Shown here in pieces: positions 1,428 to 9,559 of a stretch of DNA of 64,000 bases; the first letter of the stretch is position 1, and each line of letters starts with the position of its first letter. The position numbers were made by a program, and so were the translations under genes. The DNA is taken from contig CM022674.1 of NCBI GenBank assembly GCA_012295275.1, positions 11,594,001 through 11,658,000 of the forward strand. Reading direction: 5' to 3'. The notes below the pieces were generated by a model that saw only the letters and a list, made by a program, of their open reading frames with translations, was not told where the DNA came from and made no database searches. This stretch comes from Chrysomallon squamiferum (taxonomy: Eukaryota > Animalia > Mollusca).

Positions 1428-1980
1428 ATGATGATAAAAATTGTGATCGTTGTGGCTGCTGTAATTGGTAAGTGGTTTTATTTGCTCGTCTGTAACGACA
1501 ACGACAGAACAAATTATATATATATAAAATACATGTAATTCATACTCTCTCTCTCTCTCTCTCTCTCTCTCTCTCTCTCTCTCTCTCTCTCTCTCTCTCT
1601 CTCTCTCTCTCTCTCTCTCTCTCTCTCTCTCTCTATATATATATATTTGAATACAGACAAGATTATTTCTTTATATATGATTTGATTTGATATAATTTAT
1701 TTTATTTTATTTTATTTTATTTACATACTAAAACTTTAATTTACTTATTTATTTACTTAATTAATTAATTTAATTAATTAATTAATTTATTTATTTTTCA
1801 GCAAGCATGATTGCTTTGGGTGAGGCTCACTGCAGCAAATGCGGAGGAGGTTGTGGTAGCAGTTCAAAGAAAATCGTTGAAGTTGACGACCACGCCTTCT
1901 TTCAGACGTTGTTGGCGTTGAGTGCCGCTGCAGCTGGTGGTGCCGGTGGTGCTGCTGGTGGTTTAGGCTTCGGCAAATAG
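1428..1980 (+). CDS. Small secreted Cys/His-motif, Gly/Ala-tailed protein, paralog 1 (exons 1428-1467, 1802-1980): MMIKIVIVVAAVIASMIALGEA-HCSKCGGGCGSSSKKIVEVDDHAFFQTLLALSAAAAGGAGGAAGGLGFGK
   Basis: ATG, a hydrophobic exon ending G|GTAAGT, then a ttttcag| acceptor with an in-frame phase-1 join and stop TAG at 1978-1980. The core is nearly identical to the two neighbouring paralogs. AATAAA at ~2041. Confidence 0.85.
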
Positions 1981-3375
1981 AAAACATTTTTTATTAGAAT
2001 GTGTATTTAAGTTTATCGGTAGAAAAGGTTTACAATGAATAATAAAATACTATATATTTTTAATCTTGAGTATTTTTTGTTGTTGCTTACTACGTCTATA
2101 TAAAGATTATAAAAAAAAAAAACGAAAAAGAAACCAATACCCCCCAAAAAAACCAACAACCCCCCCCAACAATTAATTAAAAATATCGGGATTTAGTTAT
2201 AGAAGCAAATATCTATTTAAATACAGGTTTATAAGAGATCAGATTTAGAGATTTAAATAATTCTGAAACTATTAGAAAATGAAAAACCTCTGCATACCAT
2301 AAACAACCACAGTATATAAATATTATAAACATGAATACACACACAAACATACATACTCCCATGCAATCAAACATATACACATATACACTCATATACAAAT
2401 GCACATACAGACAACACACACATACCATTGAGGAAGTATGTTTGGGTATGCTGCGTACTATTGCACTGTTCACTTATGTGTGTGTATTTGCCTGCCTGCG
2501 CGTGTGTGTGTGCGTGAAAAACAACAAGTTTAAACAAATACAGTTCATGATAGTTTGTAATAAATATAGGAATACATTTTGACCAATTAAAATTCATTAT
2601 GATACAAAATACTACAATACTCTCTCTGTTGTTTACTTCAGTTTACGTCAGCTTTGTGAAATATATATCTTAATTTTAAATCAAATAATCCCACCACAAA
2701 CAACAAATCTATGAAGATCAAATAAGTTAATTAATGTGATTTTATATTTACTATTACAATATTTATTTATTACTTAACAATAAATAATTTCTGTAACGAT
2801 TTTAATAAATGTAAATTAAGTATTTATATATACAGTTTTAAGTTTCAAACACACACACACATACACACGCACACACGCACACATCAGCATAGGTATAGGC
2901 GTATTTACCATTACAAACAAATAAAAACAAATAGGTTCATATGTGTGTAAGAGTTGTAACTCTTCAAAATAAATAAATAAATAAATAAATAAATAAAAAA
3001 AAACAAATAATGGTATGATCTGCATAACATGACGTCACATGATATGATACGTCATACCTAAAGAGATAACTTGAAATGACACGACATGATGTGACTTAAT
3101 ATGAAATGATATAACACAGTATGACATGAATTGTTTTTTGTGATATGATATAATAACTCACGCATGACACAACCACCATGTAACATAATATGATATCATA
3201 TGTACTGAAGTGGTGCACAGGTTATGATATGGTATGATATGGTATATTATATATATCACTGGGAGACTTGTCTGACACGCTGAATGGTGCAATGTTGACC
3301 GGTGTAGCGTTGTACAGAACTAAAATTCTATAGTACATCACAGACAGGCACACTCAAACGCACACGTACACAGAC

Positions 3376-6688: not shown

Positions 6689-8760
6689 ATAATCACGTGA
6701 CATAGGTAGAGAAAACACTTCATCTTTGTTATTTATGTCTGGGATACGTATGTTTGCTGTGTTTGGCTGTTATTATTATTATTATTATTATAACTATTAT
6801 TATTATTATTATTATAATAACTATTATATTGTTATTATTGTTATTGTTATTATTATTGTTGTTGTTGTTGTTGTTGTTGTTGTTATTATTATTATTATTA
6901 TTATTATTATTATTATTTTATTATTATTATTTTTTACTATTACTATTATTATTATTATTTATTTATTTATTTATTTATTTATTTATTTATTTATAAATCA
7001 ATTATTGGTTGACTGGTTGATGTCTTTGTTGTTGTTGTGGTTGTAGTAGTTGTTTATTTAATTAATACAATCTTAAAGTGATATTGCTGTTAATGTTGAA
7101 CGACATCAAATTTCTTTCAGAAGATTATTAATCGTATCTCACGTTGCAACAAATGACTCAAACTAATTTATCAAAATAAACATTATATGATTTGTTTGAT
7201 GTTTGTAAATTAAGTGTAACTTTTTTCTATTAACAGAAAATGTCTTACATATTTACTTTCTCTGAAGCAGGAAAAGATATTACATCAAGATCTTCTGACA
7301 TTTAATTTTCTTGCTGTTAAGTGCGGTATCGGATTTTGTTTCAGTGTCATACATTTGAATATATACAAAAACAACAACAGTACAACAGTTGTTACCATTA
7401 TAAAAACAATTAACTATGATAAACATATGTCATAAACCAAACTTTCATTTTATTTGTTGTTTTATAATTAGTTAATGGAATTTATATTCAGTTATTTAAT
7501 AATGTGAAAAAAATTATATAATGATTTTTATTTGTTTTTGCAGAAATTGTTTATCAAATGCCACAATATGGGGAAAGGTGGAAGAAAATGGATGTTTAAA
7601 ATTATTACCGTAAAATCTTCAAAAGAAGCTCAGATATTTCTTCTTCTTTTTTTCGTCTTCTTAGTATTATTTTACTTAAAATTCGTAGCGGTATTAACGG
7701 TAACTAATGTAACAATAGTAATAATAATAATACTTGTAATAGTAGTAGTTGTAATAGTAGTAGCAGATATAAAAGCAATCGAATAAGTAGTAGTAATAGT
7801 AATAATACTAGTAATAGCAATAATAGTTAAATAGTAGTAATAGTAATACCAACAGAAGTCGTAATATTAAAAGTAACTATAGAAGTAGTTGTAGTAGTAG
7901 TAGTAGTATAGTCATAGAAGTAGTAGTAGTAACTGAAGACGTTTATATATAGAAATAAGTTCAGGAATTTTAAGTCAATGGGAAATTATTCACTTCCAAC
8001 CAGTTCTCTACGAACAGTTCACCATTCATTAATTCTTTATCTTTGTCATGTTGTCTTTGTATTAAGCTATTATTATGAAACTATTCCGGGCTTCTGTTTG
8101 AGAATGTATGGTATTCGTTACAAGGACGTTCTGTAGAGTTCAAACTGTATAAATAAACTATATATTTTAATATATCATTTGTTGTTATGTACTAATTTAA
8201 ATTATATCTGTAAGAAGAATATGTGTGTGTCTCTCTCTCTCTCTCTCTCTCTCTCTCTCTCTCTCTCTCTCTCTCTCTCTCTCTCTCTCTCTCTCTCTCT
8301 CTCTCTCTCTCTCTCTCTCTCTCTCTCTATATATATATATATATATATATATATCAGAATTAATCTCGTAGAAGTTAACACACGGAATTATTCTATCTGA
8401 ATGCGGAGGCCGATTTTTAAACAATTTCAATTCAGTAAGGGACGTAAGATAACTAAAGTTTTACTTTTTAAATTTTTATTTCGTTTTTAAATTTCTTTGT
8501 TGAAATCGTAAAAAAGCCATTCAGTAAAAAAAAAAAAAAATAAATAGGTTCTTTCAAGATACCACTTTGATGTACCTGTTGAGAAAATAAAAATAAAAAT
8601 AAATTAGCAATAAAATGATGAACCAACCTCATACTATACTATAAATAAATAAATAAATAAATAAATAAATAAATAAAGTTTGTATGTATTTGAGTATTTT
8701 GAAATTTACAATCAAGCTACACGTCAACTTACCGCAGACGAAGTGGATCACGTGACCACA

Positions 8761-9559
8761 CTATTTACCGAAACCTGCATTAGCAGCCCCGCCGGCCCCT
8801 CCAGCTGCAGCGGCACTCAACGCCAACAACGTCTGGAAGAAGGCGTGGTCGTCGACTTCAATGATTTTCTTTGAACTGCTACCACAGCTTCCTCCACATT
8901 CATGACAATCTGCGTCGCTCAGAGCGACTAGGTATACTGAACAAAATAAAATATGTACTGTAGCACTGTGATAGATGTCATGTCGACTAAGTATACTGAA
9001 CAAAATAAAATATGTACTGTGATAGATGCATGTCGACTAAGTATACTGAACAAAATAAAATATGTACTGTAGCACTGTGATAGATGCATGTCGACTAAGT
9101 ATACTGAACAAAATAAAATATGTACTGTAGCACTGTGATAGCTGCATGTCGACTAAGTATACTGAGCAAAATAAAATATGTACAATGTATCGTGAGATAT
9201 ATTATAGTAGCTGTACATAAGAAGTGACTGCAAATAAAAACAAAAACTGAATTAAATGGAATAAATAAATAAATAAATAAATAAATAAAAAAATAAATAA
9301 ATAAATAAATAAATAAATAAATAAATAAATAAATAAATATAAACAATACTACTACTACTACCATTACTACTAATAGTAAAAATAATAAAAGTCTGTTTCG
9401 TGTAAAAGCAAAAGTAAAAGAAGATAAAAATGGATCAAATGAAATAAAAAAATAAAATAAAATAAAATAAATAAAATAAAATAAAACTAAAAATCAACCA
9501 AACAGTAAAAGCTACTTACGTAGACTGACAAGAAACAAAACGAACTGTTTGAAGCACAT
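8761..9559 (-). CDS. Small secreted Cys-motif protein, paralog 3 (exons 9559-9520, 8936-8761): MCFKQFVLFLVSLLYLVALSDA-DCHECGGSCGSSSKKIIEVDDHAFFQTLLALSAAAAGGAGGAANAGFGK
   Basis: Minus-strand ATG at 9559, C|GTAAGT donor, ttttgttcag| acceptor and in-frame phase-1 join. TATAAAA at 9614-9608. Conserved core. Confidence 0.85.
8932..9183. repeat. ~58-bp tandem repeat (about 4.5 copies) containing the 3' splice site of paralog 3
   Basis: The unit gtatactgaacaaaataaaatatgtactgtagcactgtgatagatgcatgtcgactaa is repeated. Each unit carries the minus-strand acceptor (ttttgttcag, ttttgctcag in the last unit) followed by tatac. Confidence 0.9.

What the first reader, a model, noticed from the sequence alone, without database searches (positions are those of the whole stretch)
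1428..9559. Unrecognised clustered family of three secreted mini-proteins with a CxxCGGxC head, KK site, conserved helix-like core and amidation-type FGK end
Seen: three two-exon genes (two on +, one on -), each with a TATA box and a phase-1 intron inside a signal peptide. The mature parts are [H/D]CxxCGG[G/S]CGSSS-KK-I[V/I]EVDDHAFFQ[T/Q]LLALSAAA plus a Gly/Ala tail. Signal peptides and introns are unalignable while the core is nearly invariant, with many synonymous changes in paralog 2, which points to purifying selection. Paralog 1 is absent from the ORF track. Established: KK is a prohormone-convertase site, and a C-terminal GK is the carboxypeptidase/PAM amidation signal (paralogs 1 and 3 would end in GF-amide). 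Inference: these are precursors releasing a 13-aa peptide with three Cys and one His (odd Cys number, so metal binding or interchain crosslinking) and a ~35-aa amphipathic peptide. They could be new peptide hormones or defence peptides, or metal-binding structural proteins of shell, operculum, radula or adhesive. I cannot assign them to any family I know.
Basis: partly seen in the sequence, partly recalled or inferred. Interest (0 to 1): 0.85.

Follow-up and report, generated by a model that had tools for sequence, protein, structure and literature searches.

The report
Vent snail's metal-binding secreted mini-proteins
Three neighbouring genes in a snail genome, likely a deep-sea vent snail, encode near-identical, strongly conserved tiny proteins with no match in the databases searched; they are predicted to be secreted uncut and likely bind metals through a histidine/cysteine head and pack into a surface matrix, rather than act as hormones.

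Summary
The three two-exon genes are real as DNA: intact frames of 72, 69 and 71 codons, canonical phase-1 introns, TATA boxes, and a 35-codon core under strong purifying selection (dN/dS about 0.05 for g1/g2). A flanking gene points to a relative of the vent snail Gigantopelta aegis, likely the scaly-foot snail. No homolog was found in any protein, family, structure or contig search. This scan had not recorded the family on other DNA. KK followed by Ile is a poor convertase site, the amidatable ends are the least conserved part, and the second piece is acidic and hydrophobic, not amphipathic. Best reading (0.45): uncut ~50-residue secreted proteins. An N-terminal His/Cys head (ATCUN-like start plus CxxCGGxCG) likely binds metal or forms disulfide links, and a hydrophobic helix with a Gly/Ala tail likely drives packing into a surface matrix. 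Splicing, expression, tissue and metal binding are not shown. Boldest reading (0.07): the head, which matches the iron-sulfur loop pattern of E. coli NapA, seeds iron-sulfide mineral in the snail's armour.

The parts
1354..1359 (+). g1 TATA box
1428..1467 (+). g1 coding exon 1 (start of signal peptide), GTAAGT donor follows
1802..1980 (+). g1 coding exon 2: end of signal, His/Cys head (from 1828), core, Gly/Ala tail, GK end, stop
2041..2046 (+). g1 candidate poly(A) signal
6090..6095 (+). g2 TATA box
6182..6215 (+). g2 coding exon 1
   Evidence: held by run X1 with one amino-acid change in the signal peptide
6513..6688 (+). g2 coding exon 2: head from 6539, core, tail ending in GG
   Evidence: X1 contig shows 3 listed differences in this exon, all synonymous
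8761..8936 (-). g3 coding exon 2: head from 8910 (Asp-Cys-His start), core, tail, GK end
   Evidence: held by X1
8925..9183 (-). 58-bp tandem repeat (4.6 copies) that duplicates the g3 splice acceptor; the four upstream copies give products without the core
9520..9559 (-). g3 coding exon 1
9609..9614 (-). g3 TATA box

Best explanation
Three intact paralogous genes under purifying selection encode predicted secreted proteins of about 50 residues that likely stay uncut at KK, likely bind metal ions or form disulfide links through an N-terminal His/Cys head, and likely pack through a hydrophobic helix and Gly/Ala tail into an outer matrix (mucus, cuticle, periostracum, operculum or scale) of what is likely a peltospirid vent snail. 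Shown: frames, splice signals, selection, module layout, absence of database relatives. Predicted: the signal peptide (hydropathy, -3/-1 rule; two candidate cuts per gene) and a single helix at mature residues 21-36. Inferred: the free N-terminus gives a His3 site (E-A-H, D-A-H or D-C-H; ATCUN type, Cu/Ni) or a His1 site; three thiolates in CxxCGGxCG add a Zn/Cu/Fe site or, once oxidised, one internal and one interchain disulfide; the 26-27 uncharged residues after the core His drive assembly; the terminal G/GK may be amidated without being the active end. The likely role is metal buffering and cross-linking at a surface bathed in metal- and sulfide-rich fluid.
For: Intact models and TATA boxes. 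dN/dS 0.063/1.18 for g1/g2, Fisher p 2e-7. In run X1, 3 of 3 listed g2 exon-2 differences and the g3-specific one at 8812 are synonymous, against 23% of possible changes. Three Cys at fixed spacing in 3 of 3 genes. The head His moves by two places in g3 but is kept, and an acidic residue stands two places before it in all three; each gene has a -3/-1 cut that puts His at position 3, the ATCUN definition in PMC7383912 (passages). KK-Ile is a poor convertase site (PMC6585902), and conservation spans it. Helix 21-36 at pLDDT about 82 in its first half. Gly+Ala make up 35-42%. Lineage-restricted, duplicated, Gly/Ala-rich secreted proteins are typical of mollusc mantle secretomes (PMC4897951, passages). 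The flanking MYORG is 69% identical to Gigantopelta aegis and 54% to Haliotis.
Against: Splicing, tissue and protein are not shown. Low-complexity matrix proteins usually drift fast, whereas this core is nearly frozen, which suggests a specific partner such as a receptor. There are no internal repeats, unlike typical matrix proteins. If the published C. squamiferum model CsqKR_Scaf8_4.11 is this MYORG (unverified), the unannotated models near it (Scaf8_4.0, Scaf8_3.27) appear only in the novel-gene column and not in the scale-, mantle-, gill- or gland-high columns searched. Which signal cut is used is unknown, so the ATCUN reading needs different cuts in g1/g2 and g3. Thiols are normally oxidised in the secretory pathway (established knowledge), which limits thiolate-metal binding. 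The overall model confidence is low (mean pLDDT 63, pTM 0.27). g3 may be mis-spliced at its four extra acceptors.
Confidence: 0.45

Rival explanations
1. Soluble host-defence or symbiont-control metallopeptides: secreted into mucus or haemolymph, amidated, they hold Cu at an ATCUN-like start and use the hydrophobic helix to reach microbial membranes.
For: His3-type starts possible in 3 of 3; terminal G or GK in 3 of 3; clustered small secreted paralogs. A precedent for a Cu-binding defence peptide that is inhibitory or protective is ant abaecin-2 (PMC13398410, abstract). RNA libraries under the same organism label are metatranscriptomes, as for a host with symbionts.
Against: Net charge +1, 0 and -2 and a low hydrophobic moment; the mature part is frozen while the signal varies, the reverse of most defence-peptide families (recalled); no family hit.
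Confidence: 0.22
2. Hormone or neuropeptide precursors: cut at KK into a Cys-rich 13-mer and an amidated 34-35-mer that acts on a receptor.
For: Signal peptide, dibasic pair and terminal G/GK are present; KK is among the dibasic processing sites and cathepsin L/V cut there (PMC9070308, abstract); very strong constraint on the core suits receptor binding.
Against: KK followed by Ile is disfavoured for convertases; the ends that would be amidated share 2, 5 and 1 of 8 residues; an odd Cys number in the short piece; conserved hormones usually have relatives in other gastropods, and none was found although G. aegis, Haliotis and Lottia proteins are in the database searched.
Confidence: 0.1
3. Iron-sulfur seeding peptides: the head binds an Fe-S cluster, or carries persulfide sulfur, in sulfidic fluid and nucleates iron-sulfide particles in scale or shell coating.
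For: The g1/g2 head fits CxxCGxGCG, as does the N-terminal Cys loop of E. coli NapA (its role as a [4Fe-4S] site is recalled); 389 of 200,000 shuffles of the head give that pattern (a pattern chosen after the fact). The scaly-foot snail makes iron sulfide from sulfur it supplies (PMC7142155, passages).
Against: No fourth Cys; g3 breaks the pattern (Gly to Ser); 10 of 120 placements of three Cys give some Fe-S-type spacing; no domain-level hit; species and tissue unproven; see the high-expression lists.
Confidence: 0.07
4. GPI-anchored micro-peptides in the manner of CD24/CD52: SSS is the attachment site and the hydrophobic C-terminal part is a removable anchor signal.
For: Small residues, then a polar spacer, then 26-27 uncharged residues.
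Against: 36-37 residues follow the last Ser, longer than usual GPI signals (recalled, about 17-31); anchor signals are not conserved residue by residue, whereas this part is.
Confidence: 0.03
5. Silent or decaying copies, kept alike by gene conversion rather than selection.
For: g1 and g3 differ at only 3 of 75 core bases but 10 of 30 head bases, and share one 74-base piece in X1, which fits conversion or contig collapse; g3 has decoy acceptors.
Against: g2 differs from both mostly at silent sites, which conversion cannot produce; all frames, splice sites and TATA boxes are intact.
Confidence: 0.04

Closest known systems
Lineage-restricted mollusc mantle/matrix proteins with low-complexity domains (KRMP, shematrin; PMC4897951, passages)
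   Same: Signal peptide, small size, local paralog expansion, Gly/Ala-rich part, no homolog outside the lineage.
   Different: No sequence similarity found; no internal repeats; near-invariant ordered core; matrix location untested.
ATCUN/NTS peptides (albumin Asp-Ala-His start, PMC7383912 passages; ant abaecin-2, PMC13398410 abstract)
   Same: A possible free-amine X-X-His start in all three (E-A-H, D-A-H, D-C-H).
   Different: Depends on an untested signal cut; adds three Cys and a hydrophobic helix; not cationic.
N-terminal Cys loop of molybdopterin oxidoreductases (E. coli NapA, FdhF)
   Same: C-x2-C-x3-C spacing; g1/g2 match NapA at 6 of 9 positions.
   Different: No fourth Cys, no domain around it, animal secretory protein; resemblance may be chance.
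Amidated neuropeptide precursors processed by PC1/3, PC2, carboxypeptidase and PAM
   Same: Signal peptide, a dibasic pair, terminal G or GK.
   Different: KK-Ile site, unconserved amidated end, no relatives in other gastropods in the databases searched.
Metallothioneins and His-rich structural proteins such as Nvjp-1 and squid beak proteins (recalled)
   Same: Cys/Gly or His metal ligands in a small protein.
   Different: Only 3 Cys and 2 His in about 50 residues; metallothioneins lack signal peptides.

Membership tests
Convertase-processed amidated peptide precursor | Signal peptide | tested here: met
   Hydropathy and -3/-1 sites; SignalP not available
Convertase-processed amidated peptide precursor | Favoured basic site (KR/RR, no aliphatic residue after it) | tested here: not met
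   KK then Ile in 3 of 3; rule from PMC6585902
Convertase-processed amidated peptide precursor | C-terminal Gly donor | tested here: met
   GK, G, GK ends
Convertase-processed amidated peptide precursor | Conserved amidated end among paralogs | tested here: not met
   2, 5 and 1 of last 8 residues shared
Convertase-processed amidated peptide precursor | Processed peptides in neural or endocrine tissue | not testable with these tools
   Needs peptidomics and tissue RNA
ATCUN/NTS peptide | Free N-terminal amine with His at position 3 | tested here: inconclusive
   True for one of two candidate cuts in each gene; definition from PMC7383912
ATCUN/NTS peptide | Measured Cu(II)/Ni(II) binding | not testable with these tools
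   Needs synthetic peptide
Molybdopterin oxidoreductase Fe4S4 domain | C-x2-C-x3-C loop | tested here: met
Molybdopterin oxidoreductase Fe4S4 domain | Fourth Cys about 28 residues on, and domain-level similarity | tested here: not met
   Only 3 Cys; no Pfam, NCBIfam or PDB hit
Mollusc low-complexity matrix proteins (KRMP, shematrin) | Secreted, Gly/Ala-biased composition | tested here: met
   Gly+Ala 35-42%
Mollusc low-complexity matrix proteins (KRMP, shematrin) | Sequence similarity to the family and repeated motifs | tested here: not met
   No hits; no repeated unit in the alignment
Mollusc low-complexity matrix proteins (KRMP, shematrin) | Mantle expression, presence in matrix | not testable with these tools
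   Published lists give gene ids without sequences
Cationic amphipathic antimicrobial peptides | Net positive charge and amphipathic helix | tested here: not met
   Charge +1, 0, -2; moment 0.21 or less over the helix
Metallothionein | Very high Cys content, no signal peptide (recalled) | tested here: not met
   3 Cys in 49-50 residues, signal peptide present
GPI-anchored micro-peptides (CD24/CD52 type) | Anchor signal of usual length after the attachment site (recalled) | tested here: inconclusive
   36-37 residues after the last Ser; no predictor available

The most novel reading that the evidence does not exclude
These are animal-made, secreted iron-sulfur seeding peptides: a CxxCGxGCG head like the Fe-S loop of bacterial molybdoenzymes, fixed in the matrix by a hydrophobic helix, captures iron and host-supplied sulfur and nucleates the iron-sulfide armour of the scaly-foot snail.
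Probability: 0.07. Interest if true: 0.9.

Novelty: new variant of a known kind. Interest (0 to 1): 0.48.

Why it matters
If the best reading holds, this is a new 50-residue design for a secreted metal-binding matrix protein from an animal that likely lives in metal- and sulfide-rich vent fluid. It is short enough to synthesise and test directly. How the scaly-foot snail supplies sulfur and controls iron-sulfide growth is open at the protein level in the papers read. [quoted passage not shown] The score is tempered because orphan genes are common in this lineage (2,415 novel genes in C. squamiferum) and no expression or function is shown.

Tried and rejected
Homology, all blank: 5.8-billion database, g1 exon 2, near lengths, 0 of 29 candidates at E<=1; g2 mature part, longer lengths, 0 of 138 at E<=10; HMMER over 1.84 billion representatives with g2 exon 2 only, 0 at E<=0.001; Pfam, only sub-cut-off hits at E 0.09-0.7; NCBIfam none; PDB sequences none; ESM Atlas no usable hit; exact look-up absent, but only unspliced exon-2 frames could be given; contigs 0 of 596 and 0 of 598 (metagenomes), 0 of 174 (prokaryote genomes), 0 of 286 (viral); Foldseek PDB none, uninformative for a lone helix; Rfam none in the window. 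These collections are thin in short animal genes, and no animal genome could be searched by tblastn (no whole genome held). Expression: no RNA holder listed; nothing from 3 of 3 metatranscriptome contig sets laid on g2 or g3; no positive control was laid, so this says nothing. The tetramer-plus-zinc prediction gave no answer (score 0.01), no evidence either way. Literature: three motifs over the full-text library gave 4 papers, none on molluscs by title (listing only); motif searches of supplements were blank for PMC11871041 (sheet heads seen for 19 of 25 sheets show ids, not sequences; file cut; two files unreadable), PMC7142155 (one motif, 12 of 13 files; one text file too large) and PMC6003135 (12 of 27 files). 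Unseen supplements could hold the sequences. Linking to published gene ids through neighbours stayed unverified. The X1 difference at 8854 was dropped as independent evidence because it lies on a piece shared with g1; one unlisted difference probably falls on the Ile/Val site 8862 and would be non-synonymous (inference). Transmembrane reading rejected: best 19-residue hydropathy 1.2-1.4. A motif search for a paper on the NapA-type Cys spacing found only ferredoxin-type motifs.
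Full report
Observation. All introns are GTAAGT...TTCAG and phase 1, and interrupt a hydrophobic N-terminus. A TATAAA lies 74, 92 and 55 nt upstream (chance for all three about 3e-4). tblastn finds no fourth copy in the window. Outside exon 2 the three regions do not align as DNA, though the g1 and g2 signals share 8 of 18 residues.

Selection. Over the 35-codon core, dN/dS is 0.063/1.18 for g1/g2 and 0.075/0.44 for g1/g3, and dS is saturated for g2/g3. Fisher tests give 2e-7, 0.004 and 6e-11 (pairs not independent). Run X1, whose contigs run into the introns and so represent genomic DNA of another haplotype, individual or close species, holds all three genes. Its g2 contigs show 4 listed coding differences: 3 silent in exon 2 and 1 replacement in the signal peptide. 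Its g3-specific contig shows 1 silent change. With 23% of possible changes silent, 4 of 4 has p about 0.003. One further silent change (8854), and probably one unlisted Ile/Val change (8862), lie on a 74-base piece shared by g1 and g3; this fits gene conversion between the inverted copies or contig collapse, and I do not count it. g1 and g3 differ at 3 of 75 core bases but 10 of 30 head bases. A 58-bp tandem repeat in the g3 intron copies its acceptor four more times; each upstream copy gives a product without the core, so g3 may be partly mis-spliced.

Organism. The flanking GH31 gene is a MYORG ortholog; its best hit is Gigantopelta aegis at 69%, then an unnamed protein at 68%, then Haliotis at 54%. 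The window is therefore likely from a neomphaline vent snail other than G. aegis. Chrysomallon squamiferum, confamilial with G. aegis (PMC11871041 abstract), is the obvious candidate, but this is inference. An SRCR gene further along fits that lineage's SRCR expansion (PMC7142155 passages) without proving it.

Relatives. None was found in the 5.8-billion database, in 1.84 billion representatives, in Pfam above cut-off, NCBIfam, PDB, the ESM Atlas or contig collections. G. aegis, Haliotis and Lottia proteins are in the first database, so the family is either young or unannotated there, as short genes often are. Motif searches of papers and supplements were blank within the limits listed under Tried and rejected. 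Earlier notes of this scan hold nothing alike by sequence, place or words; they describe other, unrelated orphan peptide genes in the same genome, which I did not test.

Anatomy. After the signal come four parts: a head with three Cys at fixed C-x2-C-x3-C spacing and one His; a charged stretch with SSS, KK and an acidic patch; a hydrophobic segment; and a variable Gly/Ala tail ending in GK, GG or GK. AlphaFold2 gives one helix at mature residues 21-36 (pLDDT about 82 for residues 21-30; mean 63, pTM 0.27) and no fold for head or tail. The piece after KK is acidic with a low hydrophobic moment, followed by 26-27 uncharged residues too weakly hydrophobic for a clear membrane span. Each gene has two adjacent -3/-1 signal cuts. 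The earlier cut gives E-A-H and D-A-H starts in g1 and g2; the later cut gives His1 in g1 and g2 and D-C-H in g3. A free amine with His at position 3 is the ATCUN Cu/Ni site, and Asp-Ala-His is the albumin example (PMC7383912 passages). That the His moved two places in g3 yet was kept, with an acid two places before it, suggests selection for an N-terminal metal site (inference). The conserved E-A/D-A could also be a dipeptide trimmed after secretion (recalled precedent), leaving His1, His1 and D-C-H.

Against the hormone model. All three have KK followed by Ile. PMC6585902 (passages) says, for insects, that Lys-Arg followed by an aliphatic residue is rarely cleaved and Lys-Lys less still. PMC9070308 (abstract) keeps KK among processing sites for cathepsin L/V, so cleavage is not excluded. 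Conservation runs through KK (23-24 of 25 residues), while the ends that would be amidated share 2, 5 and 1 of 8 residues.

Mechanism. I commit to uncut, secreted, metal-binding mini-proteins that cross-link and pack into a surface matrix (0.45). Lineage-restricted, duplicated, Gly/Ala-rich secreted proteins are the norm in mollusc mantle secretomes (PMC4897951 passages). The frozen core is atypical of them and implies a specific contact: self, chitin or a partner. A weak point against scale or mantle: one published MYORG-like model is mantle-high, and the two unannotated models in its neighbourhood are not in the tissue-high columns searched; the link to this window is unverified and molluscs often have several MYORG-like genes. 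Rivals: defence or symbiont-control metallopeptide (0.22; precedent PMC13398410 abstract; against it charge and moment), hormone precursor (0.10), Fe-S seeding (0.07), silent relic (0.04), GPI-anchored micro-peptide (0.03).

Novel case. The g1/g2 head fits CxxCGxGCG, as does the N-terminal Cys loop of E. coli NapA; FdhF has the same Cys spacing (their role as [4Fe-4S] ligands is recalled). The pattern arises in 389 of 200,000 shuffles of the head, but it was chosen after the fact, some Fe-S-type spacing arises in 10 of 120 placements, the fourth Cys is missing and g3 departs from it. The scaly-foot snail forms iron sulfide from sulfur it supplies, so the idea is worth a cheap test, not belief.

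Verdict. A real, undescribed (within the searches named) and strongly constrained gene family, best seen as a new variant of a known kind: a lineage-restricted secreted metal-binding or matrix mini-protein. Expression, processing and function are unshown. Interest 0.48. Papers: PMC11871041 (abstract, part 1 of 3 of Results, two Methods sections, supplement heads and searches), PMC7142155 (passages, supplement rows), PMC6585902, PMC7383912, PMC4897951, PMC3458885, PMC2432063 (passages), PMC9070308, PMC13398410 (abstracts), PMC6003135 (supplement search only).

Noticed in passing
window 11227-12795 (- strand; probable upstream exon near 13430-13585): MYORG-like GH31 glycosidase with one very long coding exon; best hit G. 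aegis 69%.
   Followed up: yes
window 22341-29657 (+): Multi-exon PLP-dependent aromatic amino-acid decarboxylase; the C-terminal extension resembles tyrosine decarboxylase (recalled, no family search run on it).
   Followed up: no
window 35552-37554 (-): Two overlapping open frames (287 and 387 aa, different frames, overlap 36691-36715) with Cys/His clusters and a Trp-rich end that recall CCCH zinc fingers plus WWE of PARP12/ZAP-like proteins; possible frameshift or retrocopy. No Pfam hit at E<=0.01 for the 387-aa frame.
   Followed up: partly
window about 40990-52350 (-): Multi-exon membrane protein gene with SRCR exons, a cuticlin-N/ZP-like exon, EGF-like exons and a transmembrane exon by eye; one exon stretch appears twice (near 41850-41905 and 42735-42800).
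   Followed up: partly
window 8925-9183: 58-bp tandem repeat that multiplies the g3 splice acceptor five-fold; a natural test of acceptor choice among near-identical sites.
   Followed up: partly
window 6155-6171: Pyrimidine run plus CAG ten bases before the g2 ATG; could be the acceptor of a 5' UTR intron from an unseen upstream exon.
   Followed up: no
window 6694-6699 (+) and 8749-8754 (-): CACGTG a few bases after the stop codon in both g2 and g3, in otherwise unalignable 3' UTRs.
   Followed up: no
window about 53200-61600: Multi-kilobase tandem segmental duplication with an expanded ~57-bp satellite (56900-57900); no Rfam match.
   Followed up: partly
window 31900-32950 and 38164-38363: A ~50-bp satellite array, and a 200-N assembly gap.
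   Followed up: no
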